Positions 1,942-32,319 of a DNA stretch of 39,435 nucleotides are shown here, one piece after another. The stretch comes from a virus. A program made the position numbers and the translations under genes. The stretch lies in UHGV virus genome UHGV-1377012; one strand, given 5' to 3'. The notes below the pieces were generated by a model that saw only the letters and a list, made by a program, of their open reading frames with translations, did not search any database and had not been told where the DNA came from. Position 1 is the first letter of the stretch, and each line of letters begins with the position of its first letter.

Positions 1942-2046
1942 AGTTACCACCGTTTAATGTGCATAAAGAACCCCCTTAGTTGGTGAGTTCATTATACACA
2001 ATAAACCATATGTGGATTAAATTTGATCGGATAACTCTTAACGAAA

Positions 2047-2061
2047 TTACCCTAGAGGTGA
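2047..2061. promoter_or_regulatory. Palindrome TTACC-CTAGA-GGTGA (one mismatch to TTACC-N5-GGTAA), candidate operator
   Basis: Lies 6 bp past the esterase stop and upstream of the holin-like gene; a minus-strand TATAAT (1991..1996) and CCACATATGG (2006..2015) lie between it and the holin start. Confidence 0.5.
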
Positions 2062-2066
2062 TTTGC

Positions 2067-3443
2067 CTAAATTTCTATCTCAAACGGAAGGCAATAATTC
2101 AGCATGCAATTGTCTGCATGATAGCGATCTTTAAAATGATTTGGGAATTCATCACTATCGCAAAGCTCTCCTATCCGTGACTCTTTAAGATAACTCACCG
2201 TACCTTTAAGGCCGGAAGTATTGATGCTCACAGTATCATCTGAAATGATCTTAACGTCGCTAGCAGATAGTTTTTTTCCTGTGAAATGAAAACCCATAGG
2301 ACAACCATCTTTTATAAATGAATACATTCCGTTGAGGGTTTTTCTAAATTGCAATGGCTTCACAGGAATATTAAATTTTATAATAATGCTGTTACCATCG
2401 ATAGAATGTGATTTATAACATAGAGGTGACCATGATGAACCTGACAACTTACTAGTTAAATACGCCTGTGCCATTTTTTCGCCATGTGCACGCTGGGCAT
2501 GTGGGTACATATGAATTTCGTTCGTCAGGTGATATCTTGGGCCAGAGATGTACATCTTAATGCCGGAATGTTTTGCTTCATCATGGGCCATGCGTTGCTC
2601 GACGTTAAGACCAAAGTGTGAGTTTATCCTTCTACCTTCGGTTTTAAAACCATGCCAACAGTAATTGCTTTGCTCAAAAATAAACTCTGGCTCTTTGCCC
2701 TGCCCTGTGATTTTTACAATATCTTTAACGTAATCATTTCTGAATGATAGAAGTTTTTCAGAATATCCTTTAGGGGCGATGGCATCATTTTCCCCCTGAA
2801 TCCAGAAGATGCCATCAACTTGAATATCACTTTTGATAATATCTTTTATTTTTTCGAGCATCCACATACCGTTCAGATAAGGGTAGCGGAATTTTGGCTC
2901 GCGATAATAAAGCAGTGATTTATTTCCTGATACTACATTGTAGTCAGAAGACTCTTTAGTTAGAGGTTTGTTATAGTTGTCACCATTAAGAATTAAATCT
3001 TTGCTAGGCTTAATAAGTTGCTCTATATACTGGGATCCCCTTCCGTGCCCGAAGATAATAAGATTGTCATTTGGAAACGCTTTTGAGATATGTGAAATTA
3101 TTCCGTATACAGGCCCTTCTCCTGCATCAATACCAAATGCCATTCTGTCTAAATTGGTTAAGCTTGCGCCGCCTGAGGACAAAGTAAATGCACTTGCCAA
3201 ATCAGTTGTGATGAATTTACTACCGTCTCTCTCACCCTCATATGATTCAAGATAAGAATCCCATGGGCTTGGTGTTCTCCATGTCTGTGAATAATCAACG
3301 GTTCCTGTTGAGTTGGATTGTCCGTAAATAATGAATACGCGGTTTTTCCTTCCAGCAACAAAATCTGCAAAAAGAAGACCAGATCCTGACAGCGCGCCGA
3401 TGGCCGCAGCTAATTTAATAAAATTTCTTCTGGAAACTGACAT
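2067..3443 (-). CDS. Secreted SGNH/SASA-family esterase (sialate O-acetylesterase-like), Tat signal peptide
   Basis: N-terminus MSVSRRNFIKLAAAIGALSGS is a twin-arginine signal; IIYGQSNSTG matches the GQSN catalytic block of SASA/SGNH esterases; visibly AT-rich; start moved to the ATG at 3443 with GAGGTG upstream. Confidence 0.65.
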   Translation of the reverse strand: MSVSRRNFIKLAAAIGALSGSGLLFADFVAGRKNRVFIIYGQSNSTGTVDYSQTWRTPSPWDSYLESYEGERDGSKFITTDLASAFTLSSGGASLTNLDRMAFGIDAGEGPVYGIISHISKAFPNDNLIIFGHGRGSQYIEQLIKPSKDLILNGDNYNKPLTKESSDYNVVSGNKSLLYYREPKFRYPYLNGMWMLEKIKDIIKSDIQVDGIFWIQGENDAIAPKGYSEKLLSFRNDYVKDIVKITGQGKEPEFIFEQSNYCWHGFKTEGRRINSHFGLNVEQRMAHDEAKHSGIKMYISGPRYHLTNEIHMYPHAQRAHGEKMAQAYLTSKLSGSSWSPLCYKSHSIDGNSIIIKFNIPVKPLQFRKTLNGMYSFIKDGCPMGFHFTGKKLSASDVKIISDDTVSINTSGLKGTVSYLKESRIGELCDSDEFPNHFKDRYHADNCMLNYCLPFEIEI

Positions 3444-3482
3444 AAACACCTCAAAAACGTCCTTGTTAATGAGGATATCACA

Positions 3483-5834
3483 TTAGAGATTTCCTGTTGA
3501 CTGCCAAGTGCCAGGAGTGCCGGCGGTAACACATACCCACTCCTTAGGGCTCCCGACAGCAGGAGAGGAATTTATGCATCGCGATCCCCTTGGCCAGGTC
3601 AAAGTGGTTGGAGCGGCGGTATCGTAAAGCACAGGGAGAGATGACCCTTGTTTCACCAAACTTCCAAGCCACGCTGGAACTGTTGGCACATCCCAACGAC
3701 AGCCAGAGTGGAAGAACGCTCCAACACCATCTCCGTACATTCTGATTGCGTCTCCAGTTGTATTTGTGCTGTGACAATCGATAAGGATTAGTGGTTCATT
3801 GTTCCATGAAACGTTTCTGAAGAAACCGTTGAACCTAACTCCTTCAAGTTTCGTAGCGGAGGTTACAGTGAATGCTATATCAGATGTGCCTGCGCCAATG
3901 TGGCTAAAGTTACAATTTTCAAATGTCAGATATCCGGTGGTTCCACCTGTACCTGTCATAACAACGCCACAAGAAGCAGAGCAATTTCTTACGGTAGTAT
4001 TATTGGCAGTGTTACCGAAAGCAGCAGATACGTTAGAAATGCTGACGTTTTCAACTGTGATATTGTCGCCATTGCTACAATGGATCGCCGTTGAATCGTA
4101 AATGTCACCATATTTTGTTATACTTCCTCCATTGAAATGGCAGCGAGTTCCTTGCAAAGAAATCATATAGCTTCCGCTAAATGACTGGCTCCATCTATGG
4201 ATATGGCAATTACTCAACTCAACGTTAAGTAGTGTTCCTGCATCATTGTAAATGTAGATGTCTATTTTTTTGTTATCGCCAGCCAGATGGTCGAAAATGT
4301 GGATGTAACGTGTAGTGGCATCATCTCCAGATTGTGAATACACACGAATGCCGTACTCGCTATTTCCGAATGTTTGATTTCCTTTAAAGGTTGTACCAGT
4401 GCTCTTCCAGGCAATACATCCTCTGCCGCCATCAGATATTTCTGTATCACTCAGATAACCATTATAGTTACCGACAGAATTGATAATTTCATTGAATGTC
4501 CCGTAACGGTCTTCAAGACCCATACCCCAGTTATTTTCAGAAATGCAATCCTGAATTTTACAACGTGTGCAATTGATCATCTGAATACCAGAGCCAGGGA
4601 CCCTTCTTACTGTCATTCCTTTAACAGAACTATAAGAGGTATCAGCAACTAATACCGCAGACACTACACTGTTTGCTCCAGCCCTGACACCTGTGCCAAC
4701 TATAAAACCACCTGAGGTATGTGTATTAGCCCCCCTTATCGCCAATATATAATTTGCCAGCGAAGTACCCTGGATTAACCTTGATGATCCAAAGTCTACA
4801 GACCTACCTGCTTGCAATGTTATAGTGGCATCAAGAAGATAATCACCACCTGTAAACTGCATTCTCTTGCCAACAGCAAACATGGCGTTAATTGCTGCTG
4901 AGCACGGGGTAACTCCATCAGGCACTGCGCCAGCCATTAATGGGTTAATGATATCAGCATTAACACGAATCCATGCCGCTCCACCAGGAGTCTTGAATAC
5001 GGTAACGCCGTTGTCTGTATATGCACTTCCATCAAGCACTGCGCGAAGCTGGCCACCACCGTAACCTGTGCCAGAGGTATATTCTTTCAGGAGCACCCGC
5101 TGACCATCGGAAGCTGGCTCCGTTGCACGGAGAACTGTGACGTTAGGGAATTGCCCTATCAATTTGAAGCCGTCACTTTTTGCCAGCTCCATCAGAACTT
5201 CAGATGCGGAAGCTGATGGCGGGAGAACGACAATTGCATTACCCATGCTATCAAACGCGGGCATTTTGTTTGCCCTGTCAACTGCTGATGGTAGCTGATT
5301 GATTGGCTCTGGTACGCGCAGAGTACGCATCAGGTTGCCACTGGACAGCGTATCAACATAATTCTTGGTAGCTGCATCCTGAGGGTCCCGTGGGTCGCGG
5401 AGATTGCGAATATAGTTGTTCAGCGCATCGTACCAGTTCGCGATGCTTGATGGTTTACGCAGCGCCAGGCGGAACACGCTGAATGCCTGTTGGATCAGCA
5501 TCGTCAGCTTATCGAATGCGTCCTCATGCACCTCTGCGAAGAACTTACCCTGGTTGCGCAGATCGGTATCCTGCGTAACCGGTAGCTCTCTTGATATAGA
5601 AATCTGATAACCGTTAACCAACGCCTTCGACAGAATTACATTGCCGCCGTTATACCCTCCCGCACCAGTGACTATGTAATCAGTATCAAGAGCCAGCACA
5701 GCGATATTTTCGTCAAGGTCAACCACCTGCACTACCAGATCAGATTCATTGAAAACCCTAAAGGTATAAGGGAATGAAGTCGTAACGCCATTGCCTGTGT
5801 ATTCGTTGTGGTCAACTTCGGTTGAGACCGTCAT
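3483..5834 (-). CDS. Tailspike / receptor-binding protein with probable beta-helix depolymerase domain
   Basis: 783 aa; N-terminal roughly 150 aa look like a virion-attachment domain, the remainder is rich in Gly/Asn/Ser/Thr repeats typical of right-handed beta-helix tailspikes; last structural gene before the cargo and lysis genes. Confidence 0.7.
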   Translation of the reverse strand: MTVSTEVDHNEYTGNGVTTSFPYTFRVFNESDLVVQVVDLDENIAVLALDTDYIVTGAGGYNGGNVILSKALVNGYQISISRELPVTQDTDLRNQGKFFAEVHEDAFDKLTMLIQQAFSVFRLALRKPSSIANWYDALNNYIRNLRDPRDPQDAATKNYVDTLSSGNLMRTLRVPEPINQLPSAVDRANKMPAFDSMGNAIVVLPPSASASEVLMELAKSDGFKLIGQFPNVTVLRATEPASDGQRVLLKEYTSGTGYGGGQLRAVLDGSAYTDNGVTVFKTPGGAAWIRVNADIINPLMAGAVPDGVTPCSAAINAMFAVGKRMQFTGGDYLLDATITLQAGRSVDFGSSRLIQGTSLANYILAIRGANTHTSGGFIVGTGVRAGANSVVSAVLVADTSYSSVKGMTVRRVPGSGIQMINCTRCKIQDCISENNWGMGLEDRYGTFNEIINSVGNYNGYLSDTEISDGGRGCIAWKSTGTTFKGNQTFGNSEYGIRVYSQSGDDATTRYIHIFDHLAGDNKKIDIYIYNDAGTLLNVELSNCHIHRWSQSFSGSYMISLQGTRCHFNGGSITKYGDIYDSTAIHCSNGDNITVENVSISNVSAAFGNTANNTTVRNCSASCGVVMTGTGGTTGYLTFENCNFSHIGAGTSDIAFTVTSATKLEGVRFNGFFRNVSWNNEPLILIDCHSTNTTGDAIRMYGDGVGAFFHSGCRWDVPTVPAWLGSLVKQGSSLPVLYDTAAPTTLTWPRGSRCINSSPAVGSPKEWVCVTAGTPGTWQSTGNL

Positions 5835-5938
5835 GTTAAATCTCCAGATAGTCGCAGCACCCGTTGCGCCGCATATCTGGTTATTCTATTACCTGAAAAA
5901 CCACATATGGATAGAAAGACTGTGAATACGAATAGATA

Positions 5939-5953
5939 TTACCTTTCGGGTAA
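5939..5953. promoter_or_regulatory. Perfect palindrome TTACC-TTTCG-GGTAA, candidate operator
   Basis: Immediately upstream of a TTGCAA hexamer (5955..5960) and of the LexA box; a half-site plus CCACATATGG lie at 5889..5910. Confidence 0.55.
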
Positions 5954-5990
5954 TTTGCAAAACGTGCTGGATAGCAAATAAATTATTTGA

Positions 5991-6010
5991 TACTGTATAT
6001 TTATACAGTT
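5991..6010 (+). promoter_or_regulatory. LexA (SOS) box TACTGTATATTTATACAGTT
   Basis: Perfect CTGT-N8-ACAG with AT-rich spacer, 20 bp upstream of the ATG at 6030 and just downstream of a promoter-like TTGCAA-N17-ATAAAT. Confidence 0.75.
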
Positions 6011-6029
6011 ATTGCATGGAGAAGATAAG

Positions 6030-6287
6030 ATGCAGCAGTATCACTATCCACTGGAAGACGGATTTACCGAAAGGATTTACACGCCGGGAGGCGTCAGGTC
6101 ACTGGTGGAGGGATCGCACTTGATGAAATTACTCCTGGATCTCGATAAGGATGGATTTAATGTCGATGGCCCACTTGCCGAACTGACTGCACTGATTAAC
6201 TACGTCACCAGCTCACAGATGTCTATGCAGGATCTGCAAACACATCTCGACTATTGTGCCGAACAATTACGAAAACAAACCACATAA
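6030..6287 (+). CDS. SOS-box-controlled small acidic protein (85 aa), candidate antirepressor
   Basis: ATG at 6030 with GGAGAA 7 nt upstream (the track start at 6012 is a TTG); plus-strand gene embedded in a minus-strand structural operon; preceded by the LexA box. Confidence 0.6.
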   Translation: MQQYHYPLEDGFTERIYTPGGVRSLVEGSHLMKLLLDLDKDGFNVDGPLAELTALINYVTSSQMSMQDLQTHLDYCAEQLRKQTT

Positions 6288-6292
6288 AGAAA

Positions 6293-6310
6293 AGGCCGCG
6301 AAAGCGGCCT
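6293..6310. terminator. Hairpin AGGCCGC-GAAA-GCGGCCT between convergent genes
   Basis: 7-bp GC-rich stem; T-rich run follows on the minus strand and A-rich on the plus strand; sits between 6030..6287 (+) and 6319..6615 (-). Confidence 0.5.
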
Positions 6311-6318
6311 GTTACATG

Positions 6319-6615: not shown

Positions 6616-6810
6616 GTAGTCACCTATTTACCCAGTAAAAATAAGAGGCCTCCCCTCAATAAGGCTTGCAACAAGAACTACTACCTGCATAACAAAGATG
6701 AACCAGCAAATAGCTTGAGTCTGAGGGTTAAGAAAATATTTGTAGCGGTCAATAAATAACAATCCACCAGAAATTATCACACTCAAAATAATTAAAAACA
6801 CAACACTTCC

Positions 6811-9290: not shown

Positions 9291-11093
9291 TTAACCTCTC
9301 AAGAAACACGCCACAGCAACATCAAACAGGCTGGAATCCTGTATTGCCTGCTCACTTTCCCTGTTCGCTTCATCCAGTACTTCACGCGCACTGCGCGATT
9401 GTGGATTACCATCATCATCCAGCACGGTGATTATCATGTCCGGAGATTCAAGCAGCGAGTCTTCAGCTATACGCAGATCAATATCTCCTGCCGGATCTGC
9501 CATCATTTTTTGTTCTGTCTGTTGCAATATCTTACCGGGCTCAAAAGGAGCTACTTCGTCTGGCGTCCTGACCTCTGCTGTTTTATAGAATGAAACAGCC
9601 TGAGCATTAAGTTCACTTTCTGCCTGCTGTCGCCGTGCCAGTTCTGCTCGAGCTTCAAAAAACTGACCTCCAGGCTCGTGCGGCGCCAACGCGTTACGGG
9701 AAAATTCCAGGCGTTCTTGTGCCTGCCGGATTCGTTGGTCAATATCGCGAATTCTGGCCTGTTTATCTGATCGAGCACGAGACAAAGCTTTACCGCTACC
9801 AGTTGGCTCTTCTGCAAGAATTTGTGCGCGCTGTTCAGTGAGATTGTCGATAATTCGTTGGCTATTAGCGATTTCAGACTGGTAAACCTGTCTATCGCCA
9901 CGCGGCAAAAGCTGCGCAGCCTGTTCTTCAAGCAACCGATTTTCGATAGCGCGCGCCGTTACTCCATCATCTACAGATGACAGAGCCTCATTAACTGCCT
10001 GAGACAGCAGATTCTTGCGCCCAGGAATTTCACTGAAAGATGCAGACTCAACAATGCTGGCAACGTCTACAGGTCTCCCTTGGCTAACATCAGACATAGC
10101 TTTTCGCAGAGCCTGAATGTGAGAATTGCGCGAAAGCACATTGATCGGCACGCCGGGAGCAATATCAATTTCAGCATGATGAGCGGCATTCGCCGCCAGT
10201 GCAGCATCGATATCAACTGGTGAAAAGTTTGGTGCGTTTGTAGACTCGCCGCGAGAGTTAATAAATCTGCCGACACCACCCAAAGCCACCCCAAGAACAG
10301 CATCAATAGCAATTGCCTGTCGATCCAACACATCATACTGGTTAGCCATTTCGCTATAGCCACCATCACGAAGCGTTTTTGCAGTAAGCCCGCGCTGTGC
10401 CATACCGAACGCAATATTTGTACCTGCGGCATAGGCAATATCTGGCGTTGCACGTACTGCTGTTGCTGCGGCGCGTCGCACTGAACTTTCACCCGTCCGC
10501 GCAAGCTGGGCCGCCACACCTTCCGCCAGCGCACCACCAGCACGTAACCCGAGGCTCATAGGGATCAGTGTTCCGGCACCAGCAGTAATACCCTGCACTA
10601 ATCCTGCTTCCTGCGCCGTCCTAAAATCAACACCCTGTGCTGTCAGCCGTTCAAACTCAGAAAAACCCTGTAGCGAAGTTACCGCCGCTGCACCTCCGAC
10701 CGGACCACCGAGCGTTGTACCGACGACAGCCTGCCCGCCCATATCGAACAACCCATAAAGAACCTGCCCGGCGGTTCCGGTTGTCGCCGCATCAGGCGTC
10801 AGCCGCTTAACCTGCTGCTCTGCTAGTTTTCTCTGCTCGGCAATGTATGAAACTGAAGTGTCATTGAGCGAGGTGTTTTCGTTAACAAACTGAGCAATCG
10901 GGGATACGATTTTATCCATCCCTGCCCATAGCAACTGATCTGGCTTTGCCACCAGCCCGGAGTACAAACCAGACAATGCCGCTCCTACAGCATTGTCGAA
11001 AAAACCAACATCGCTGTTAAAGTCCGCTGGATTTGATGCTGCTTCGTCAAGCTGCTGATTCTGGTTTACTGGATTAAGGCCAAAGTAACTCAT
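9291..11093 (-). CDS. Internal virion protein
   Basis: 600 aa, Ala/Gly-rich with C-terminal coiled-coil-like region; contiguous with the other core-protein genes. Confidence 0.6.
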   Translation of the reverse strand: MSYFGLNPVNQNQQLDEAASNPADFNSDVGFFDNAVGAALSGLYSGLVAKPDQLLWAGMDKIVSPIAQFVNENTSLNDTSVSYIAEQRKLAEQQVKRLTPDAATTGTAGQVLYGLFDMGGQAVVGTTLGGPVGGAAAVTSLQGFSEFERLTAQGVDFRTAQEAGLVQGITAGAGTLIPMSLGLRAGGALAEGVAAQLARTGESSVRRAAATAVRATPDIAYAAGTNIAFGMAQRGLTAKTLRDGGYSEMANQYDVLDRQAIAIDAVLGVALGGVGRFINSRGESTNAPNFSPVDIDAALAANAAHHAEIDIAPGVPINVLSRNSHIQALRKAMSDVSQGRPVDVASIVESASFSEIPGRKNLLSQAVNEALSSVDDGVTARAIENRLLEEQAAQLLPRGDRQVYQSEIANSQRIIDNLTEQRAQILAEEPTGSGKALSRARSDKQARIRDIDQRIRQAQERLEFSRNALAPHEPGGQFFEARAELARRQQAESELNAQAVSFYKTAEVRTPDEVAPFEPGKILQQTEQKMMADPAGDIDLRIAEDSLLESPDMIITVLDDDGNPQSRSAREVLDEANRESEQAIQDSSLFDVAVACFLRG

Positions 11094-18406: not shown

Positions 18407-18407
18407 C

Positions 18408-22789: not shown

Positions 22790-22857
22790 ATCAATGACTC
22801 CGTACGCAATTAAATTATTACCAATTTAACCACATATGATTTATTTATCGTAGGTGG

Positions 22858-22894
22858 TTGACATTTAACGCACGAATTATTACCTTTCAGGTAA
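22858..22894 (+). promoter_or_regulatory. Promoter-like TTGACA followed 16 bp later by perfect palindrome TTACC-TTTCA-GGTAA
   Basis: TTGACA at 22858..22863, palindrome at 22880..22894; CCACATATG at 22830..22838; faces the tRNA-Arg gene. Confidence 0.5.
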
Positions 22895-23217
22895 CCAAAA
22901 AGTTCATTCCGGTTACTAACCTGACTGGCTTGTCGTTAAATTGAACAGGTGGAGTGAGCTTTTATTTTGAGCAGTACGGCGTATGGCACATGCGTCGTTA
23001 GCGGTCTGGTGACGTTAAAGGGGTTACCTTTTCCCCTAGCTCAGGCAACAAACCAGGTAGCCGGAATGTGCAAGCCCCGTTCATATCGTCGGACCGAGGA
23101 CTCACCATCCTGGCGATTCGGTGTGACGCCTCGGAAGAGACGAGGGTACAACGATGAGAGCATTTATGGAGCCGCGACAAAGTGTGGCGCCTTAACAGGC
23201 TAAGTGCTCTCAGCGTT

Positions 23218-23294
23218 GTGGCATTAGCTCAGCTGGACAGAGCAACCGCCTTCTAAGCGGTTGGTCGCAGGTTCGAATCCTGCATGCCACGCCA
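23218..23294 (+). tRNA. tRNA-Arg (anticodon TCT, reads AGA)
   Basis: 77-nt cloverleaf: acceptor GTGGCAT/ATGCCAC, D-stem GCTC/GAGC, anticodon stem ACCGC/GCGGT with loop CTTCTAA, T-arm GCAGG-TTCGAAT-CCTGC, discriminator G and encoded CCA. Confidence 0.9.
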
Positions 23295-23379: not shown

Positions 23380-23457
23380 ACAGCAGGACGCCATTGCGAT
23401 GACTTCATGCTGTAAACCAGTACAGCCACGGAAGGCATAACTCATTGCTTCCAGTTC

Positions 23458-23481: not shown

Positions 23482-23495
23482 CTAGTGACTACTGA

Positions 23496-23510
23496 TTACC
23501 TTATGGGTAA
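23496..23510. promoter_or_regulatory. Perfect palindrome TTACC-TTATG-GGTAA, candidate operator
   Basis: 33 bp upstream of the ATG at 23543, directly after the terminator. Confidence 0.55.
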
Positions 23511-23542
23511 TATACTGCAAACTAATAACACAAGGCCGTGAC

Positions 23543-24433
23543 ATGCTTGACTTCATCCGTGACATTTACTCCTCTTTCCGCCAAGCATCTCTTGAGCGAG
23601 TGAAAAGCCCGTTCCTTGGGGCATTTGTTTTTTCCTGGCTTTGCTTTAATTGGCAGATGTTAGCAATTCTATTTTTTAGTTCTAAGGATATTGAAAAGCG
23701 CCTTGCTATTATTAATGGCTCTTTCGGCATCGTCAGCTTTTTAATTGCGCCAATATGCACTACAGCATTGATAGTTATCCTTTTACCGCAAATTAATAAA
23801 TTGATTACAATAATACAAGATAAACCTAACTCAGACACAATTGAAATGAGCCTTGCATCTAAAATAAAGATCGCCGAACTGCAGCAACTATTAGCAGAAA
23901 ATGAAGCAAGAAAGAAACTTGCTGATAAAAAAGAAGAACGCTTCATTGAAGAGAATATTATTTCAATAAAAAAAGACCATGAAAAAGCAATAGATAACCT
24001 TAAAGACAAAGAAAGTAAAATCTCAAATCTCACGGACACAATAACTGAACTTCAGAGCAAACTGGTTAAAGCTGAGGCCACTCTCAAAGTTGAACAGGAG
24101 TCAAGATCCCAAGTGCAGAATGAATTGATTATTGAAAAAGAGAACAAGCGGAAATTAGAAGACAACATTCTGCACCTTAATTTAAGTTTAAAAAAAAACC
24201 AATCAGAATTGGCCATTGCAAAAGAAGCCTATGATAATACCTTGATGGCTTATAATGAACTTAACACAACATTAAAAAAAGCAGAAAGCTCAATAATAAA
24301 CTTCAATGCTAACTTTCCTTTTTTAACTGACATAAATAACAGCACCCCAAATACATACTTAAAAATAAATAAAAATGCATGGGAGCATTTAGTTAGTTTA
24401 AATTTAAGTCTAAAGGAAAAAATACAAAAATAA
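23543..24433 (+). CDS. AT-rich membrane-anchored coiled-coil protein (cargo gene, function unknown)
   Basis: 296 aa; two N-terminal hydrophobic helices followed by about 200 aa of Lys/Glu/Leu-rich heptad-like sequence; very AT-rich; opposite strand to the flanking terminase and portal genes. Confidence 0.7.
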   Translation: MLDFIRDIYSSFRQASLERVKSPFLGAFVFSWLCFNWQMLAILFFSSKDIEKRLAIINGSFGIVSFLIAPICTTALIVILLPQINKLITIIQDKPNSDTIEMSLASKIKIAELQQLLAENEARKKLADKKEERFIEENIISIKKDHEKAIDNLKDKESKISNLTDTITELQSKLVKAEATLKVEQESRSQVQNELIIEKENKRKLEDNILHLNLSLKKNQSELAIAKEAYDNTLMAYNELNTTLKKAESSIINFNANFPFLTDINNSTPNTYLKINKNAWEHLVSLNLSLKEKIQK

Positions 24434-25926: not shown

Positions 25927-26519
25927 TGATTACCATCCTGACGTTCTTTCAGTCTCTTCCTGGCTGCTGCTATGCGATCAGCAATTGTCACATTCACATT
26001 AACATCCATGCGTTCTTTGAACGCGTTGACGTCGACGTGCTTACCAATCAGTTCGAGGTTCTTCACCTTGTCAGGCCATTTAATTTTTTTGAGGATTGTC
26101 TCTATCGAATCCTCGTTCATGTTCATGATGGTCGATGACAGATCAAAGCCGCTAAGCGTAGTGCGCCAGATTTTCGGCCACTCGCGGATTGGCTTAAGGC
26201 TCCCATCGTCGTTGAGGATATCAATCACGTCCATCTGGTCGATCTCCACCAGGCGCATGAGAACGTAATCGGCACTGACGCGCATTCGTTTGTTGCGCTC
26301 CTCCATCAACTCGGCAATCCGTTTTTGAATGCGTTCATCGCGCATCATGACACTGGCTTTAACTGCCGCTGTATTTGGGGAGAATCCTGCGTTAATCGCT
26401 GCCTGAGTCTGGTTTTCAGGCGTTTTGATGTATGACTGGCAATAAGCCTCCTGCATTGCTGTTAGTGGCTTAAATTGCGTTGATTTGCGTTTATAGGTTT
26501 TAGGTTCAGCAGGCATCAT
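25923..26519 (-). CDS. Terminase small subunit
   Basis: About 198 aa; start placed at the ATG at 26519 because the track N-terminus (TITTTVTITTVV) is the translation of the GGTAATAG repeat region. Confidence 0.65.
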   Translation of the reverse strand: MMPAEPKTYKRKSTQFKPLTAMQEAYCQSYIKTPENQTQAAINAGFSPNTAAVKASVMMRDERIQKRIAELMEERNKRMRVSADYVLMRLVEIDQMDVIDILNDDGSLKPIREWPKIWRTTLSGFDLSSTIMNMNEDSIETILKKIKWPDKVKNLELIGKHVDVNAFKERMDVNVNVTIADRIAAARKRLKERQDGNQ

Positions 26520-26536
26520 AACCACCGTGGTAATAG

Positions 26537-26551
26537 TTACCGTTGTGGTAA
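26537..26551. promoter_or_regulatory. Perfect palindrome TTACC-GTTGT-GGTAA inside tandem GTGGTAATAGT(T)ACC repeats
   Basis: Four alternating half-sites across 26529..26558, 18 bp upstream of the small terminase start and just downstream of a terminator. Confidence 0.55.
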
Positions 26552-26562
26552 TAGTACCATGC

Positions 26563-26637: not shown

Positions 26638-26976
26638 TCACACTATTAATTTCGTTTCATGCCAGCCTTTAGTCACCCAGCATTGTGAGTCACCATTACA
26701 CGGACATGAATTAACTGGAACTCTCTCGCCGCACTTACCGCAACGTTTTCTGCTGATCGATTTTATACGCCCGCGCACGCGTGCATCATCCTGGCGGATC
26801 AGTAACGCTATATACTCACCAAATTCGTAAGGCGCACGCCCGGGGCGACGCGTGGCACAGTTACGCTCCAGCATTTCAATTTCCTGAGCATCAAGCACAA
26901 TTTCCAGCTTACGCACACCAGATGCAGCTTGTCTGGCTCTCTGAGCGGATTTGCGCTCTGCTGCGGATTTAGCCAT
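26638..26976 (-). CDS. Cys-rich (zinc-finger-like) small protein, candidate late regulator
   Basis: C-terminal CGKCGE...CPCNG cluster; start taken as the ATG at 26976, which overlaps the upstream stop by 1 nt; last gene before the packaging operon. Confidence 0.45.
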   Translation of the reverse strand: MAKSAAERKSAQRARQAASGVRKLEIVLDAQEIEMLERNCATRRPGRAPYEFGEYIALLIRQDDARVRGRIKSISRKRCGKCGERVPVNSCPCNGDSQCWVTKGWHETKLIV

Positions 26977-27206
26977 CAACCTTCTCTCCATGCCTGGTTT
27001 CTGGTTTTAAGTCCATTGCGCTTGGCATTTCTCTGAATCCGTTTCAGTTCTTCCCTGGACTGCTCTGGAGTTATTTCTCCTCTCATAACTCGTTCAACAA
27101 GACTCCTTCTAACTTCCATACTGTCAGCGATAAGACCTTGCTCTTCTAGCTTCTCGATATTCACGCGCTTATCAAGGCGAGCATCCCAACTTGAGCGTCT
27201 CATCAT
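26976..27206 (-). CDS. Small basic hypothetical protein
   Basis: 76 aa, Arg/Glu-rich; ATGA overlap with the upstream ORF. Confidence 0.4.
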   Translation of the reverse strand: MMRRSSWDARLDKRVNIEKLEEQGLIADSMEVRRSLVERVMRGEITPEQSREELKRIQRNAKRNGLKTRNQAWREG

Positions 27207-27833: not shown

Positions 27834-28525
27834 TTAACCTCCTGCGGCGGTTCTGGCAGCGGCATCCAGTGGGTTACATTGCTAATCAGACCATATTCAT
27901 TAGTTTGAGGATGGTTGCCGCTATCGTCTCCGTATTTAAGACTCTCCATAAAGCCATAATGCCTATCCCCATTAACGCTCACAAAGCCGTAATAAGCTGG
28001 CATAACGCCGATCTCACACGTAACCAGTAAAGGAAAACTAGTTCTCCAATTTAGCTCGCCAATTACAGGCATTCGCTCACTACAGCTTATCCAACCATCC
28101 GTAATTACCGGAGAGTTGCCGGGTTCTTTAATGTGCAAGCGAGGCTCACCATCTTTTGGTTCAGGCCACTGGCGCTCCATGTTAATCTTCAATTTATCTT
28201 CCATAGCAGCGGTAATTTCAGCATCGCTGATGCCAGCACGGCGCTGTGCATCCCACAACAGAAACTGCATATCAGCCCACTCGCTAAGATCGTCTGGTTC
28301 GGCTGCGGCTTCCAGTGCCTCTTTTGAGAGGTGTTTCAGTGGACCAATGGGGCCAACGCAGCCAAATGTGGAGTCAGACCATTTGGCATGCTCGTGGCGA
28401 ATCTGTTCGCGTTTCAGTGATGCCAGTGCAATCCGTGCCAGTTCCATTTGTTCGCCACGGGTAAGCCCGTTATCAAGCGGATTTTTAATGAATAATTCGA
28501 TACGTTCTTTGGTTATAGCGCTCAT
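27830..28525 (-). CDS. DUF550/DUF551-type prophage protein
   Basis: 231 aa; C-terminal HWMPLPEPP tail and central Trp/Cys-rich segment recalled from DUF551-type enterobacterial prophage proteins. Confidence 0.55.
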   Translation of the reverse strand: MSAITKERIELFIKNPLDNGLTRGEQMELARIALASLKREQIRHEHAKWSDSTFGCVGPIGPLKHLSKEALEAAAEPDDLSEWADMQFLLWDAQRRAGISDAEITAAMEDKLKINMERQWPEPKDGEPRLHIKEPGNSPVITDGWISCSERMPVIGELNWRTSFPLLVTCEIGVMPAYYGFVSVNGDRHYGFMESLKYGDDSGNHPQTNEYGLISNVTHWMPLPEPPQEVK

Positions 28526-28526
28526 C

Positions 28527-29342
28527 TCACTCTCCTTTGATGCGAATGCCAGCGGCGCGGATTGCAGCGATGACCTCAGAAACTTTGTATGCCATTACCG
28601 TTTGGTAATCATCGTGAAAATCTGTTCGATGAAGCATGCTGCTACGTTCCGGGAGCGATATTTCCCGAGCATCCAGTTCCTTAACGCGTTCCTCCAGTTC
28701 GTAGACCCTGCATTGTTCTCTATCATCAATCAGATATAACCCAAGACATTCGCTTTCTACCCAACCGCCAAAATCATGATCGTAACGCTCACATGAAAAC
28801 TCACCGTCACCGTCCTTTGTTGGAATGGTGTAACTATCTAATGGGCCACCATATGTCGGCACATTTCCCAATGTTGGATGCTCAATCCACATGAAAAATG
28901 CACGTCCGGTTATTGGGCAAAGATCTGGCCGCCATTGGTTACGAACAGCCTTGGTTTCGGATAATTCTTCAGCGTGTTGTTTTACTTCCTCAAGCTCAAC
29001 TCTCAGCTTCCCTACCGTTAGCGCAATATCCTCGTTCTCCTGGTCACGGCGTTTGATGTATTGCTGGTTTCTTTCCCGTTCATCCAGTAGTGCCAGCACG
29101 GTAGCCGGATTGGCTGCGGCGATGAATTCAGCATTGGCCTGCTGTTCTATTTGGAAATCTTTATCGAAACCGCTTTCAGGATGCGCTCCTTCAATTCTGC
29201 AAATGGGAATATATCCAGCAACTTCACGATGAATTAGCGCATCATCACCATCAAATCGGCTCTTTCCATATTCGAGCGACCACTCGCCACACGTTGCTTT
29301 TTCTGCCTTAGCACGCAGTGCCTGATAATCAATTTTGCTCAC
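28527..29342 (-). CDS. Ead/Ea22-like protein
   Basis: N-terminus MSKIDYQALRAKAEKATCGEW matches the characteristic Ea22-family start; coiled-coil middle. Confidence 0.65.
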   Translation of the reverse strand: MSKIDYQALRAKAEKATCGEWSLEYGKSRFDGDDALIHREVAGYIPICRIEGAHPESGFDKDFQIEQQANAEFIAAANPATVLALLDERERNQQYIKRRDQENEDIALTVGKLRVELEEVKQHAEELSETKAVRNQWRPDLCPITGRAFFMWIEHPTLGNVPTYGGPLDSYTIPTKDGDGEFSCERYDHDFGGWVESECLGLYLIDDREQCRVYELEERVKELDAREISLPERSSMLHRTDFHDDYQTVMAYKVSEVIAAIRAAGIRIKGE

Positions 29343-29902
29343 TGGTTGCCTCCTTTGCGAAGCTGGTCGGCGAACAAACGTACACCAGACGCTTCACTGC
29401 GTAGAAACTTAACGGCATAATCAAAACCACCTCGTTCTGCGTCGTCTGCTCCGTTGTCGAGGTTATCTGCGTACATCTCTACCCCCTGCGCCCGTACTTC
29501 AGCCATGAAAGCATCGGTGGCTGGGGTTTTGTTGTCGCACATCAATTCAAGCGCGTCGTTCCCATCAAGATTGCAGAACTCCCATGCTGACGAATAGAAC
29601 TCGATGCCAGGCCAGACTAATAGTTTATTCAATTTGTCATTTAGCCCCGCATTCTCCGCTGCCAACGCCGAAAACTTCTCGTGTGCCAACTTAACAGCCG
29701 AATCAGCCTGCTTAATTGACTCAGTCGCCCTCTGGTGGTCTTCGGCCAGCGCATTAGCACGCACCAGTTGCACTTCCAGTTGCGTTGCCAAATCGCTGAT
29801 CAGCTTTGACACACTGCGCATATCAACGGCACCACATTCTGCTTTCAGTTCCGAAGCCATCTCATGCCCGGCGGCAACTAACCCTTTGATGTTACTTTCC
29901 AT
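29339..29902 (-). CDS. Coiled-coil early protein (Ea22-like region)
   Basis: 187 aa, coiled-coil N-terminal half; 4-nt overlap with the downstream Ea22-like gene. Confidence 0.5.
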   Translation of the reverse strand: MESNIKGLVAAGHEMASELKAECGAVDMRSVSKLISDLATQLEVQLVRANALAEDHQRATESIKQADSAVKLAHEKFSALAAENAGLNDKLNKLLVWPGIEFYSSAWEFCNLDGNDALELMCDNKTPATDAFMAEVRAQGVEMYADNLDNGADDAERGGFDYAVKFLRSEASGVRLFADQLRKGGNQ

Positions 29903-29963
29903 CTTTACCCTCGCTTATCCACATAACTTATTGATTACATTGATAACTAAAAAGATCGTCGAT

Positions 29964-30308
29964 TCAGAACTCTTCGATGTTCCAGCCGCCACCTGCTTTC
30001 TTTGGTTTAACCGTTACCCCGATGATTCGGAACGGATACTGATCTGCGGCGACTTTGGTTTTCACTCTGGCGTCGTCGGTCCAGAAACCTTTCACTTCGT
30101 GCAGTTCCATCTCGCCGGTGGCGAGCATCACAGCAAAATCGGGCGTATAGAACGTGTTGTCAGCTAACCGCAGCTTGATACCCTCGAATCGATACCAGGC
30201 GATTTCCCCTGCACGTTTACGCTGCTCAAGGTACTGGCAATACGCAGATTCTGTTTTGTTCATCTGGCCTGTTTTGAGTCGACCAAGAGCCTGTATCTGT
30301 TTTCTCAT
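29964..30308 (-). CDS. DUF1064-type PD-(D/E)XK-like protein
   Basis: 114 aa; YTPDF...ELHEVKG arrangement consistent with a PD-(D/E)XK nuclease core. Confidence 0.5.
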   Translation of the reverse strand: MRKQIQALGRLKTGQMNKTESAYCQYLEQRKRAGEIAWYRFEGIKLRLADNTFYTPDFAVMLATGEMELHEVKGFWTDDARVKTKVAADQYPFRIIGVTVKPKKAGGGWNIEEF

Positions 30309-30311
30309 AAT

Positions 30312-30326
30312 TTACCTCTGAGGTAA
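30312..30326. promoter_or_regulatory. Perfect palindrome TTACC-TCTGA-GGTAA, candidate operator
   Basis: 4 bp upstream of the DUF1064 start; followed by an A-tract and CCACATAAG (30334..30342). Confidence 0.55.
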
Positions 30327-30373
30327 TTAAAAACCACATAAGACACGAAATCAATAGATTTTAGAATGTTTTA

Positions 30374-30388
30374 TTACCCAGCAGGTAA
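30374..30388. promoter_or_regulatory. Perfect palindrome TTACC-CAGCA-GGTAA, candidate operator
   Basis: Second copy 62 bp from the first, between the P-like stop and the DUF1064 start; a weak 4-bp hairpin plus A7/T7 tract (30401..30420) lies between it and the P stop. Confidence 0.55.
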
Positions 30389-30425
30389 TCATCGAGACGT
30401 AAAAAAATGCGCTATCGCGCTGGTA

Positions 30426-31211
30426 TTACTTGATAAATCCTGCCGCCTTTCCCCGCCTGTATTCCTCCATCAGCCACTGCGCCGGTGTTATTCCCCCCAG
30501 GGTGGCGGCGTTAGGCATGCACCCGAAACTTCGCCCTGGTGAATGGTAAACGTCTCTCCCTGTGTCCGGAGGTGTACTCATGGGTTCTGGCTTTGCCTGT
30601 ATGCTGATCACCGGATCGGGTATCTGCTGTCCGGAAGCCACCTTTTTCGCCCAATCATCGAGCAGCCTGCGCGCGTGTTTCTCAACCTCAATCTCGCTAA
30701 GCTGGCGCTGATACATTGCACGGCGGGTATCACATACGACCCAGTACATAACCGGATGTCGCCACGGGAATCTTTCGGGACCACCAGGATATAAACTTTT
30801 TTCCTTGCTGTACCGGTGAAACTCCGCCATCACATCGTCAATGGTGACGCCAAGAACCATCTTGCTGTCTTTGCACCACTTGATGAATTGCCCTGGCGAC
30901 GGCCAGAACGGAGACTCACTGGCGCGGGCGTGGCGCATACCAGCAGAAACCTGTTCACGGGTTCGGATCCCACCTTCGGCAAACGCAGCAATCCACTGCT
31001 GTTTTGCAGCAACTTCCTGCTCTGGCGTCTTCAGGTTGGTTACCACTGCCGCCGGAAACAGTTGTTTCAGCTGTTTGAAAAGGGCATCAACAAGCCTCTC
31101 TGCTGACATGTTCACCACATTGTCATTGTTGACGTACTGATGCTCATAACCTGACATGCGAGCAAGGGCTTCTCCGTCACGGTTTTGTATCGCGGTAAAA
31201 ACGTTGTTCAC
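30426..31211 (-). CDS. Replication protein P-like (helicase loader)
   Basis: Block QQWIAAFAEGGIRTREQVSAGMRHARASESPFWPSPGQFIKWCKD aligns by eye with the lambda P region ...RRQWVLAFRENGITTMEQVNAGMRVARRQNRPFLPSPGQFVAWCRE; GTG at 31211 with GGAGG 8 nt upstream overlaps the O-like stop (GTGA). Confidence 0.8.
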   Translation of the reverse strand: MNNVFTAIQNRDGEALARMSGYEHQYVNNDNVVNMSAERLVDALFKQLKQLFPAAVVTNLKTPEQEVAAKQQWIAAFAEGGIRTREQVSAGMRHARASESPFWPSPGQFIKWCKDSKMVLGVTIDDVMAEFHRYSKEKSLYPGGPERFPWRHPVMYWVVCDTRRAMYQRQLSEIEVEKHARRLLDDWAKKVASGQQIPDPVISIQAKPEPMSTPPDTGRDVYHSPGRSFGCMPNAATLGGITPAQWLMEEYRRGKAAGFIK

Positions 31212-32023
31212 AAGAAATCCTCCCACGCTTCAGGGCTGTTCCAGTGCGGAACGTTGTTATCAGGTAATGTTGATTGCTTCTGTCTGCTAATCTGCAGCCG
31301 CCTTGCCAGCTTCTGCTCCCACTGCGCCTGATGGTATGCCTTACCCTCAGCCATCCAGTAAATTCTGAACTCTGCAAGTTCCTGTGCCGTTGGCAGACTG
31401 TCCAGGTAGATCCCCTGCAATGAGCTTTTCCGAAGAAAGTCATCTGATGGTTGCCATTGTTCATGCATGACAAATTTGCCTAATTGCCCTGGCCCACCAG
31501 GAGGAACAAAGTTATTCATCACGGCGTTGTTTGCGCCGGGGTCATGAGGCACAGAATCCCCGCTTTTTGTCCTGCTCTCCCTCTCTTGGTTAAATGACTG
31601 GTTATATGACTGGTTCTGGATCCCGTTTTTGGGATCATTCAACATCCCGTTTTTGGGATCATTCAACATCCCGTTTTTGGGTATATTCCCGTTTTCGGGA
31701 ACATTACCGTTTTTGGGTTCATTCCCCCATTCCCGGTTGCCTTTAATGTTCCCGTTTTTGGTTATATTAAGAGAGAAAACCCGCACTCTTTTCGTCGCTC
31801 CCTTTCTCTCTCCGGTATCTGAAATAAGCCCCATTTTCATGAGCGATATAAGTCCGGCCTGCACGGTTTTTTTATTCAGACAAGTGTCTTTAACGAGGCG
31901 TTCTATGCTGGGGTAGCAGAGGTTATATTCATCGGCTCTGTCAGCCATCGAGAGCAGTATGAGCTTTAATGATGAGCTGCCTGGATCTGTCTCCCAGGCC
32001 CAATCTGTTGCATGTCTGCTCAT
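31208..32023 (-). CDS. Replication initiator (O-like, N-terminal HTH) containing the origin iterons
   Basis: N-terminal WAWE...LKLILLSMADRADEYNLCYPSIERL resembles the HTH of phage replication initiators; central PKNG repeats are the translation of the DNA iterons; directly upstream of the P-like gene. Confidence 0.7.
   Translation of the reverse strand: MSRHATDWAWETDPGSSSLKLILLSMADRADEYNLCYPSIERLVKDTCLNKKTVQAGLISLMKMGLISDTGERKGATKRVRVFSLNITKNGNIKGNREWGNEPKNGNVPENGNIPKNGMLNDPKNGMLNDPKNGIQNQSYNQSFNQERESRTKSGDSVPHDPGANNAVMNNFVPPGGPGQLGKFVMHEQWQPSDDFLRKSSLQGIYLDSLPTAQELAEFRIYWMAEGKAYHQAQWEQKLARRLQISRQKQSTLPDNNVPHWNSPEAWEDFL
31594..31761. repeat. Iteron array (candidate origin of replication) inside the initiator gene
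   Basis: Six copies of CCCGTTTT(T/C)GGG (31622, 31646, 31670, 31688, 31706, 31751), the first three on an exact 24-bp period, preceded by ATGACTGGTT twice. Confidence 0.65.
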
Positions 32024-32038
32024 GATTAATCTCCGCTA

Positions 32039-32239
32039 TCAGCTTGAGTGTTGTGGGGAGGAATTAATCATGATCTGCTTAATCTCTGCCCTGATGCGAC
32101 GGTTTGATTCCATGGTGCACTCAACACAGTGCCCGTTGTAAACCCAGCGTTCACTGTCATGTCCGTGCTTACATTGTTTTCCGGTGTAATAGCGTTTAAG
32201 TCCGCGCTTTGCGGCATCAATACGTGTAATGATTTCCAT
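32039..32239 (-). CDS. Small zinc-ribbon protein in the cII position
   Basis: 66 aa from the ATG at 32239 (the track start at 32302 adds a hydrophobic leader); CKHGH...HCVEC metal-binding pattern. Confidence 0.45.
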   Translation of the reverse strand: MEIITRIDAAKRGLKRYYTGKQCKHGHDSERWVYNGHCVECTMESNRRIRAEIKQIMINSSPQHSS

Positions 32240-32319
32240 GGTAAGCCCTGTTATTAGTATTGGGATTACGGTTATTTTGTGCTGACACAAAAAAAAGATC
32301 AACCATATTTGGTTTTTTA

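What the first reader, a model, noticed from the sequence alone, without database searches (positions are those of the whole stretch)
2006..32312. Second recurring element, CCACATATGG-like, coupled to the palindrome through an A-tract
CCACATATGG or close variants occur next to palindrome copies at 2006..2015 (reverse orientation), 5901..5910, 22830..22838, 29919..29927, 30334..30342 and 32303..32312. Typical arrangement is GGTAAT, then 5 to 7 A/T, then CCACATA(T/A)G. The co-occurrence suggests a composite site, perhaps a second regulator or a promoter element, rather than chance.
Basis: seen in the sequence. Interest (0 to 1): 0.45.

Follow-up and report, generated by a model that had tools for sequence, protein, structure and literature searches.

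The report
Second operator-like palindrome in phage promoters
A short palindrome (consensus CCATATATGG) sits inside the core of almost every lytic promoter of this epsilon15/phiV10-like prophage, always a few bases from a repressor half-site, and is conserved across the whole phage group, so it is very probably an undescribed second protein-binding site of the lysis-lysogeny switch.

Summary
The window is a Uetakevirus (epsilon15/phiV10-like) prophage. The "palindrome" ATTACC-N5-GGTAAT is the known operator of the Rep repressor.

The second element is real. Five of the six listed sites are members: 2006, 5901, 22830, 30334 and 32303. 29919 is not; it is a DnaA-box-like TTATCCACA. A degenerate sixth copy lies in the PL spacer (33462).

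Read in phage sense, the element is YCATAT(A/G)TGG(T/A)T, ideally the perfect palindrome CCATATATGG. It lies in the core (-45 to -15) of the promoters for gp40, gp42, gp3 (head operon), tailspike and gp23 (lysis), and of PL. In five of six copies an exact Rep half-site lies 6-7 bp away, against 0.7% of random positions.

It is kept at orthologous places in all seven named relatives examined, 46 tailspike-promoter variants and 85 gp3-promoter variants. There it is as conserved as the operator while neighbouring DNA drifts. Linker lengths to the distal operator are fixed (27 nt, or 17 in two lineages).

It is not a hairpin, not a canonical Rep operator, and not a convincing -35.

Best reading (about 0.4): a non-canonical auxiliary operator that gives the Rep tetramer its promoter-proximal hold. 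Main rival (about 0.3): the site of a separate phage regulator. The binder cannot be settled in silico.

The parts
2006..2015 (-). Element copy in the lysis-operon (gp23) promoter, CCACATATGG. It ends 9 nt upstream of the -10 TATAAT (1991-1996).
   Evidence: Orthologous copies in 64 variants and 7 genomes.
2046..2062 (.). Distal Rep operator O1 of the gp23 region (ATCACCTCTAGGGTAAT), 30 nt from the element.
5901..5910 (-). Element copy in the tailspike promoter, CCATATGTGG.
5883..5893 (-). Rep half-site GGTAAT (5888-5893), 7 nt after the element, overlapping the -10 TAGAAT (5883-5888).
   Evidence: Across relatives the -10 varies as TAGAAT/TACAAT/TAAAAT/TAAACT, i.e. TAnA(A/C)T.
5938..5954 (.). 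Distal Rep operator O1 (perfect ATTACC-N5-GGTAAT), 27 nt from the element. It abuts the -35 TTGCAA (5955-5960) of the divergent antirepressor promoter.
22830..22839 (-). Element copy in the head-operon (gp3) promoter, TCATATGTGG.
22812..22822 (-). Rep half-site GGTAAT (22817-22822), 7 nt after the element, plus the presumed -10 TAATTT (22812-22817).
   Evidence: The half-site is GGTAAT in 82 of 85 variants.
22879..22895 (.). Distal operator O1, 39 nt from the element. Its centre is 62 bp from the centre of the 17-mer that ends in the half-site.
30311..30389 (-). gp42-type (DUF1064) promoter. Order: O1 30373-30389, 18 nt, -35 TTGATT 30349-30354, 5 nt, element TCTTATGTGG 30334-30343, 2 nt, -10 TTTAAT 30326-30331 overlapping O2 30311-30327.
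32270..32335 (-). gp40 promoter. Order: operator 32319-32335, A6, element CCAAATATGG 32303-32312, -35 TTGATC 32297-32302, 17 nt, -10 CAAAAT 32274-32279 overlapping half-site ATAACC 32270-32275.
33416..33494 (+). PL. Order: O1 33416-33432, -35 TTGACA 33451-33456, 5 nt, degenerate element CCAAATACGC 33462-33471, 2 nt, -10 AATCAT 33474-33479 overlapping O2 33478-33494.
   Evidence: The copy is perfect (CCATATATGG) in phage Tyrion.
32749..32758 (+). Possible extra copy, TCATATATGA, over the rep ribosome-binding site. It is present only in part of the E. coli-type lineage.
32775..33359 (+). Rep repressor gene. The protein has an N-terminal Cro/YdaS-like HTH and a C-terminal HTH_3 domain.
   Evidence: PDB 5D50/5D4Z.
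32390..32620 (-). gp39, a small HTH protein in the cro position. It is homologous to the Rep N-terminal domain.
26638..26991 (-). gp49-like regulator, a candidate binder. The ribbon-helix-helix and Cys-cluster description is my reading of the sequence, not a tool call; PHROGs only names it 'transcriptional regulator'.
29915..29927 (+).

Best explanation
The element is a second, non-canonical operator. Its ideal form is CCATATATGG, or AACC-ATATAT-GGTT with flanks, built like the 14-bp operators of small HTH dimers.

It is embedded in the RNA-polymerase footprint of every Rep-controlled lytic promoter except PR. My preferred mechanism is that it is the promoter-proximal anchoring point of the repression complex.
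- Rep is reported to bind DNA as a tetramer.
- One DNA-binding unit holds a canonical operator or half-site next to the element, 6-7 bp away (19.5 bp centre to centre).
- In most promoters it also holds a distal canonical operator O1, 40-62 bp upstream on the same helical face.
- The element supplies the extra weak, cooperative contact that places protein over -45 to -15 and excludes polymerase.

Shown: the sites, their promoter positions, their coupling and spacing to Rep sites, and their conservation.
Inferred: that a protein binds the element, that the protein is Rep, and that the effect is repression.
For: 1. Location. All copies lie between -45 and -15 of promoters deduced from conserved hexamers.

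2. Coupling. Five of six copies have an exact Rep half-site at 6-7 nt, against 0.67% by chance. The composite occurs 3 times against 0.03 expected. Many relatives also carry GGTAAT 5-6 nt upstream of the gp23 copy.

3. Need. In the tailspike, gp3 and gp23 promoters the only full operator lies 27-39 nt upstream of the element, too far to block polymerase. A promoter-proximal contact is therefore required if Rep represses them. The element and the half-site are the only conserved candidates.

4. Phasing.
- The O1-to-element linker is 27 nt in 44 of 46 tailspike variants and 17 nt in the other two. Its sequence drifts (0.84 bits per column, against 1.65 for the element and 1.66 for O1).
- The linker is of one constant length (39 nt as counted directly; one search's slice was offset by one and prints 38) in 83 of 85 gp3 variants.
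- Operator pairs peak at 62 bp.

5. Interchangeability.
- In a Scandinavium prophage (L092) a canonical operator, ATAACCATTTTGGTAAT, fills the PL spacer where the element sits elsewhere, 20 bp from O2 (element: 19.5 bp).
- Lineages without the element in PL carry an extra canonical operator downstream.
- Adjacent canonical pairs are 17-18 bp apart.

6. The element shares the CC...GGT core of the operator.

7. Protein side.
- Rep is the SPC32H-type repressor solved as 5D50/5D4Z. It is described as binding DNA as a tetramer whose DNA-binding pairs come from different dimers (PMC9638917).
- It has two HTH regions. The recognition helix of the N-terminal domain (NLVNRW) is invariant. T120 and R123 of the C-terminal HTH_3 helix are invariant, although the whole protein shows only 42% identity between lineages.
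Against: - The element lacks the ATTA/TAAT outer bases that every canonical operator keeps, and it has a 6-bp rather than 5-bp centre.
- Its centre ATAT is invariant (44 of 44), while canonical centres are free. This points to a different reading head.
- The C-terminal HTH_3 helix changes Q to P in the epsilon15 group without a matching change in the element.
- The late promoters have poor -35 hexamers, which suggests that an activator, not only a repressor, acts there.
- No binding data could be read. The three primary papers were not held.
Confidence: 0.4

Rival explanations
1. The element is the site of a separate phage-encoded regulator, a 'switch' factor. Bound in the spacer of the early promoters (PL, gp42) it shuts them off. 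Bound at about -30 of the late promoters (gp3, tailspike, gp23), which lack a -35, it turns them on, in the manner of phi29 p4 or a T4 MotA box. Candidates are the gp49-like protein at the end of the early-right operon, gp39, the AlpA-like protein or the PerC-like protein.
For: - The late promoters have weak or absent -35 hexamers, and none passes the sigma-70 scan.
- Apart from GGTAAT, the element is the only shared conserved block at about -30.
- The invariant centre ATAT and the near-palindromic form suit a dedicated dimer.
- gp49 is conserved (71-79% identity). I read its N-terminal part as ribbon-helix-helix-like; the only tool support is a weak match to a LexA-regulated protein family (E 0.048). 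It is the last early gene before the late region.
- The HTH of gp39 is invariant across all lineages.
Against: - gp49 homologues of 57-67% identity occur in phages ZF40 and AH07, which have no such element in intergenic DNA and have their own Q-like antiterminators.
- In SPC32H/SPN1S the N-terminal arm and first strand residues of gp49 are replaced, yet every element copy is kept.
- gp39 probably reads the canonical operator. Its homologue sits in the cro position of Psychrobacter phage pOW20-A, whose operators are ATACC-N5-GGTAT.
- The distance from element to -10 is 2, 9, 12 or 23 nt, which is too variable for one activation geometry.
- This reading does not by itself explain the fixed 6-7 bp distance to Rep half-sites in either orientation.
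Confidence: 0.3
2. The element is not a specific protein site. It is part of the promoter or of the DNA mechanics: a weak -35 substitute (TTCATA/TCCATA at 17 bp from TAGAAT), or a hyper-flexible CATATG hinge, possibly used by a host bending protein. The hinge would let the very short O1-O2 loops (50-62 bp) close.
For: - In epsilon15-type tailspike promoters, T+TCATA lies exactly 17 bp from TAGAAT and matches TTGACA at 4 of 6 positions.
- In tailspike promoters the 5' half CATAT is invariant while positions 7-8 vary.
- All copies lie between a distal and a proximal Rep site.
- CA/TG and TA steps are the most deformable steps (my own knowledge).
Against: - In PL and the gp42 promoter the element lies in the spacer of promoters that already have TTGACA/TTGATT. 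In the gp40 promoter it lies upstream of the -35.
- In the gp23 promoter the -35 register falls outside the element.
- The invariant flanking C2, G9 and G10 are not needed for flexibility.
- There is no match to the IHF, CRP, Fis or DnaA consensus by inspection (my own knowledge of those consensus sequences).
- The epsilon15 record places its predicted IHF sites elsewhere.
Confidence: 0.17
3. Hitch-hiking: the promoters are paralogous copies of one or two ancestral modules, and the 'element' is merely inherited sequence with no function of its own.
For: PL and the gp42 promoter share an identical layout, as do the gp3 and tailspike promoters.
Against: Within each promoter the element stays conserved while the flanking linker decays to 0.84 bits per column. 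This holds across lineages whose genomes are about 76% identical and whose Rep is only 42% identical. Spacings are also preserved.
Confidence: 0.05
4. A small hairpin followed by a T-tract, i.e. a terminator or attenuator-like signal in DNA or RNA.
For: The element is a palindrome followed by T-rich sequence.
Against: - The predicted folds are no better than shuffles, with z-scores from -1.4 to +0.3.
- The stem would be only 3 bp.
- Positions 3 and 8 vary independently, in all combinations.
- The element lies upstream of the deduced transcription starts.
- No Rfam family other than tRNA matches the window.
Confidence: 0.01

Closest known systems
Rep operator of epsilon15/SPC32H-type phages (ATTACC-N5-GGTAAT; annotated 'protein_bind repressor' in the epsilon15 record)
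   Same: Palindromic, with a shared CC...GGT core. It lies in the same promoters. It occupies positions that a canonical operator occupies in another lineage (L092). Its centre-to-centre distance to its neighbour (19.5 bp) resembles that of adjacent canonical pairs (17-20 bp).
   Different: The centre is 6 bp, not 5 bp. The outer ATTA/TAAT bases are not kept. The centre ATAT is fixed. The element is not annotated in the epsilon15, phiV10, SPC32H, Tyrion, BUCT554, 65FD or Klebsiella records I examined.
Auxiliary operators and repressor-mediated looping in lambda (OR3/OL3, CI octamer) and lac/gal
   Same: Weak extra sites work only cooperatively with strong ones. The helical phasing of linker lengths is conserved.
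   Different: The loops here are very short (50-62 bp), and the auxiliary site has a different sequence class from the main operator.
434/P22-type 14-bp operators (ACAA-N6-TTGT)
   Same: Four-bp outer half-sites with a 6-bp AT-rich centre. This is the size expected for a small HTH dimer.
   Different: The sequence is unrelated. The comparison is architectural only, rests on my own knowledge and was not tested.
Factor sites inside promoters: T4 MotA box (about -30), phi29 p4 sites, lambda QBE and Pseudomonas AlpA ABE (between -35 and -10; PMC9371919)
   Same: A short specific element inside the -35/spacer region of phage promoters. The late promoters lack a good -35.
   Different: No MotA/AsiA-, p4- or Q-like gene was recognised in the window. 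The window's 'AlpA' is the small Pfam PF05930 type. By the residue and helix numbering in PMC9371919 and my own knowledge, the Pseudomonas antiterminator is a larger, unrelated protein. The element's distance to the -10 is not constant.

Membership tests
Canonical Rep (gp38/SPC32H Rep) operator | 17-bp palindrome ATTACC-N5-GGTAAT with an invariant ACC/GGT core and conserved ATT/AAT outer bases | tested here: not met
   The element is CC-N6-GG. Its outer positions are not conserved (AAAACC, TAATCC, TAAATC...), so at most 2-4 of 6 bases match per half.
Canonical Rep (gp38/SPC32H Rep) operator | Bound by Rep | not testable with these tools
   This needs an EMSA or footprint. The primary papers were not held.
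Sigma-70 -35 hexamer | TTGACA-like hexamer 16-18 bp upstream of a -10 hexamer | tested here: inconclusive
   It fits the tailspike promoter of the epsilon15 type (TTCATA-17-TAGAAT). It does not fit gp23 (the register falls outside the element). It also does not fit gp42, PL or gp40, which have their own -35.
Intrinsic terminator / hairpin | A stable GC-rich stem followed by a T-run, with compensatory changes | tested here: not met
   Fold z-scores are -1.4 to +0.3. The terminator scan does not call these sites. There is no covariation of positions 3 and 8.
DnaA box | TTATNCACA | tested here: not met
   Only the non-member site 29915-29923 matches it, perfectly. By inspection, the genuine copies at 5901 and 30334, read with their A-tract, match only 6 of 9 positions.
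Antiterminator loading element (lambda QBE / AlpA ABE type) | A site between -35 and -10, plus a Q-like protein, plus a sigma-dependent pause site downstream | tested here: inconclusive
   The position criterion is met in four promoters. No Q-like protein was found by Pfam or PHROGs among the 10 candidate small regulator ORFs scanned; the whole window was not scanned. Pause sites were not examined.
Uetakevirus (epsilon15-like) prophage (context) | Synteny and nucleotide identity to phiV10/epsilon15 | tested here: met
   95-96% identity to phiv142-3 and phiV10 over 80% of the structural half. About 76% identity to epsilon15.

The most novel reading that the evidence does not exclude
Rep is a two-headed repressor that reads bipartite operators. 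Its N-terminal Cro-like HTH pair binds ATTACC-N5-GGTAAT, while the HTH_3 pair in its tetramerisation domain binds the CCATATATGG palindrome 6-7 bp away. The flexible linker would explain why the neighbouring half-site can face either way. An alternative of equal novelty is that the element is a '-30 box' for an as yet unidentified late-gene activator of this phage group, for which no late regulator is known.
Probability: 0.2. Interest if true: 0.65.

Novelty: new variant of a known kind. Interest (0 to 1): 0.45.

Why it matters
The epsilon15/phiV10/SPN1S group is used for Salmonella and E. coli O157 detection and biocontrol. Its repressor-antirepressor pair is a structural model for 'non-canonical' repression.

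How this group times and shuts off its head, tail and lysis genes is not described in anything I could read. A conserved second site in all those promoters gives a concrete handle:
- It predicts where the repression complex touches the core promoter.
- It offers simple mutations to test.
- It may reveal either a second DNA-reading surface of Rep or a missing late regulator.

It also matters for engineering reporter or strictly lytic derivatives, where these promoters are reused.

Tried and rejected
- Literature. The epsilon15 genome paper, the SPC32H Rep-Ant structure paper and the SPC32H antirepression paper are not held. Full-text searches for the operator string, for Uetakevirus transcription and for SPC32H gave nothing on this element. 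The ZX5 paper only predicts four promoters.
- gp49 as binder. PDB sequence search found no hit. ZF40 and AH07 carry close homologues but no element. SPC32H has an altered N-terminus. gp49 is weakened as a candidate but not excluded, because residues in the stretch I take to be its DNA-reading strand differ in ZF40 and AH07.
- gp39 as binder. Weakened by the pOW20-A comparison.
- Search for heteroimmune relatives that keep the element with a different operator. None was found. All 64 gp23-promoter variants, 85 gp3-promoter variants and 6 enterobacterial prophages use the same operator family. More distant homologues of the Rep N-terminal domain (Paraburkholderia, Hydrogenovibrio) have other recognition helices and were uninformative.
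- Scan of viral contigs for the 14-mer AACCATATATGGTT.
- Hairpin or terminator reading: rejected. Known RNA family: none.
- Palindrome-preserving covariation. It looked promising (CCGTATACGG, CCTAATTAGG), but positions 3 and 8 occur in all combinations, so I rejected it.


Full report
**Context**

The window is an integrated Uetakevirus. Positions 38-25000 are 95-96% identical to phages phiv142-3 and phiV10 and about 76% identical to epsilon15. The phage + strand is the window's minus strand for 1-32,300. The leftward early operon reads on the window's plus strand from about 33,500.

Its copies correspond to the features annotated 'protein_bind: repressor, lysogeny' in the epsilon15 record.

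The repressor gene is window 32775-33359. It belongs to the SPC32H Rep family, solved as PDB 5D50/5D4Z. A later paper summarises that Rep binds DNA as a tetramer whose DNA-binding pairs come from different dimers (PMC9638917). The palindrome is therefore known; the question here is the second element.

- CCACATATGG with at most 1 mismatch occurs 7 times against 2.3 expected; 0 of 100 shuffles reach 7.
- Five of the six listed sites are true members: 2006, 5901, 22830, 30334 and 32303.
- 29919 is not a member. It has no operator or A/T tract next to it and reads TTATCCACA, the DnaA-box consensus.
- A sixth, degenerate copy (CCAAATACGC, 33462-33471) lies in the PL spacer.
- A possible seventh (TCATATATGA, 32749-32758) overlaps the rep ribosome-binding site.
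- Six of eight relaxed matches lie in the 7.3% of the window that is non-coding.
- Five of six copies have an exact Rep half-site at a gap of 6-7 nt, which is true of only 0.67% of positions.
- The composite GGTAAT-W6-CCNNATNNGG occurs 3 times against 0.03 expected.

At 5888 and 22817 the neighbour is the other half of the palindrome, and at 2006 the operator is 30 nt away.

**Anatomy**

Read in phage sense, the element is YCATAT(A/G)TGG followed by (T/A)T. Many relatives carry the perfect palindrome CCATATATGG. Promoters were deduced from hexamers that stay conserved while their spacers drift (coordinates checked).

| Promoter | Layout (phage sense) | Gap from element to -10 |
|---|---|---|
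| PL and gp42 | O1, 18 nt, -35 (TTGACA / TTGATT), 5 nt, element, 2 nt, -10 (NNNNAT), whose last two bases begin O2. O1-O2 distance is 62 bp. | 2 nt |
| gp40 | operator, 6 nt, element, -35 TTGATC, 17 nt, -10 CAAAAT overlapping a half-site | 23 nt |
| tailspike and gp3 | O1, 27 or 39 nt, element, 7 nt, GGTAAT, then the -10 | 12 nt |
| gp23 (lysis) | O1, 30 nt, element, 9 nt, TATAAT | 9 nt |

- In the tailspike promoter the -10 varies among relatives as TAGAAT, TACAAT, TAAAAT and TAAACT, which is the pattern of a real -10.
- Many relatives also have GGTAAT 5-6 nt upstream of the gp23 copy.
- The element therefore always lies between -45 and -15, but at four different distances from the -10.
- The consensus promoter scan finds PL but none of the late promoters, which lack a good -35.

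**Conservation**

The element is present at all five orthologous positions in phiV10, epsilon15, SPC32H, Tyrion, BUCT554, 65FD and a Klebsiella phage, and in enterobacterial prophages from GTDB.

Tailspike promoters were collected by anchoring on the tailspike coding sequence, so the collection is not biased towards the element.
- 46 of 47 unique variants show the same layout.
- Information content is 1.65 bits per column for the element, 1.66 for O1, 1.88 for half-site plus -10, and only 0.84 for the linker between O1 and the element.
- ATAT (positions 3-6) is invariant in 44 of 44. My extraction pattern fixed positions 2, 9 and 10, so only positions 3-6 are an unbiased result.
- The linker is 27 nt in 44 variants and 17 nt in the other two, exactly one helical turn less.

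In 85 gp3-promoter variants the spacing is constant in 83, and the half-site is GGTAAT in 82. All of this holds although Rep itself is only 42% identical between the E. coli-type and Salmonella-type lineages.

**What it is not**

- It is not a hairpin or terminator. Folding is no better than for shuffled sequence, the stem would be 3 bp, and positions 3 and 8 vary in every combination.
- It is not a known RNA family.
- It is not a canonical Rep operator. It has a 6-bp centre and no ATTA/TAAT flanks.
- It is not a general -35 element. PL, gp42 and gp40 have their own -35.
- By inspection it is not an IHF, CRP, Fis or DnaA site. That comparison rests on my own knowledge of those consensus sequences.

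**Who reads it?**

Four lines of evidence tie the element to the Rep system.
1. It has a fixed 6-7 bp distance to a canonical half-site or operator. The 19.5 bp centre-to-centre distance compares with 17-18 bp for adjacent canonical pairs and 20 bp for O3-O2 in L092.
2. The linker lengths to the distal operator are phased.
3. In the Scandinavium prophage L092 a canonical operator fills the PL spacer exactly where the element sits in other lineages. The Salmonella and Klebsiella lineages, which lack the element in PL, carry an extra canonical operator downstream.
4. In the three late promoters the only full operator is too far upstream to occlude polymerase. Rep needs a promoter-proximal contact there, and the element plus half-site are the only conserved candidates.

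I therefore favour (about 0.4) an auxiliary, non-canonical operator that is occupied cooperatively by the Rep tetramer.

Its weaknesses are the different geometry and the invariant ATAT centre, which suggest another reading head. That head could be Rep's own second HTH. The HTH_3 region at residues 106-147 scores E 1e-9, and T120 and R123 are invariant, although Q changes to P in the epsilon15 group. This is the 'two-headed repressor' reading that I list as the novel case.

**Rival regulators**

- **gp39** is in the cro position and is the only gene between PR and a terminator. Its HTH is invariant and it is homologous to the Rep N-terminal domain. However, its homologue in Psychrobacter phage pOW20-A sits beside operators ATACC-N5-GGTAT. 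This family most likely reads the canonical operator, as Cro does.
- **gp49** I read as a ribbon-helix-helix domain plus a Cys cluster; that reading comes from the sequence and not from a tool. It is well placed for a late regulator. Against it, close homologues live in ZF40 and AH07 without any such element, and SPC32H has replaced its N-terminal arm while keeping all copies.
- A dedicated 'early-off / late-on' factor remains attractive because the late promoters look activator-dependent. I give this class about 0.3.
- A pure promoter or flexibility role gets about 0.17, hitch-hiking about 0.05 and a hairpin about 0.01.

**Novelty and verdict**

The element is not annotated in the epsilon15, phiV10, SPC32H, Tyrion, BUCT554, 65FD or Klebsiella records I examined, and I found no paper that mentions it. 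The three primary papers could not be read, so prior description cannot be excluded.

It is best filed as a new variant of a known kind: an auxiliary operator or promoter-embedded regulator site in a temperate-phage switch.

Interest is moderate at 0.45. It would rise to about 0.65 if the element proves to be read by a second DNA-binding surface of Rep or by an unknown late activator.

Noticed in passing
window 5955-6008: The antirepressor (ant-like ORF 6012-6287, +) has a promoter whose -35, TTGCAA, directly abuts the Rep operator 5938-5954. A perfect LexA box, CTGTATATTTATACAG (5993-6008), lies just downstream. This matches the LexA-controlled antirepressor scheme reported for SPC32H. The operator position, about -44, resembles lambda OR2 at PRM, so Rep might even stimulate this promoter.
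   Followed up: partly
window 29915-29923: A perfect DnaA-box consensus, TTATCCACA, lies between the DUF1064 and eae-like genes and is conserved in phiV10.
   Followed up: partly
window 31587-31726: Tandem iterons, ATCCCGTTTTTGGGAT(CATTCAAC), about 5 copies, plus a 12-bp repeat, lie inside the replication-initiation gene (31208-32023, -). This is probably the phage origin.
   Followed up: no
window 26518-26552: Two canonical Rep operators lie 18 bp apart, immediately after a terminator and directly before the terminase small-subunit start codon. There is no room for a promoter between them and the gene, which suggests a roadblock or read-through control of the packaging genes.
   Followed up: no
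window 23218-23294 and 23410-23425: A tRNA-Arg (anticodon tct) is on the leftward strand. A second LexA-like box, CTGTAAACCAGTACAG, lies upstream of a 296-aa ORF (23543-24433, +), with a perfect Rep operator at 23495-23511.
   Followed up: no
L004 (SPC32H) 38290-38632: In SPC32H/SPN1S-type phages the N-terminal basic arm and the start of the adjoining conserved (K/R)KLE(L/I)VL stretch (which I read as a beta-strand) of the gp49 homologue are replaced by sequence from the upstream gene.
   Followed up: partly
L099 (Psychrobacter phage pOW20-A) 2100-2245: A gp39 homologue sits in the cro position next to a CI-like repressor. The operators there are ATACC-N5-GGTAT, which share the ACC-N5-GGT core of the Uetakevirus operator.
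   Followed up: partly
L092 (Scandinavium sp. prophage) 10639-10796: PL here carries four canonical operators, one of them filling the promoter spacer. The gp42 promoter of the same prophage has a CC-N5-GG pseudo-operator (CCAATTAGG) in place of the usual CC-N6-GG element.
   Followed up: partly
window 22840-22878: A conserved TTGACA on the opposite strand, 17 nt from TACCTT inside operator 22879-22895, suggests a Rep-controlled leftward promoter for the tRNA/moron region. About 50 bp around the gp3 promoter is almost invariant across the whole phage group.
   Followed up: no
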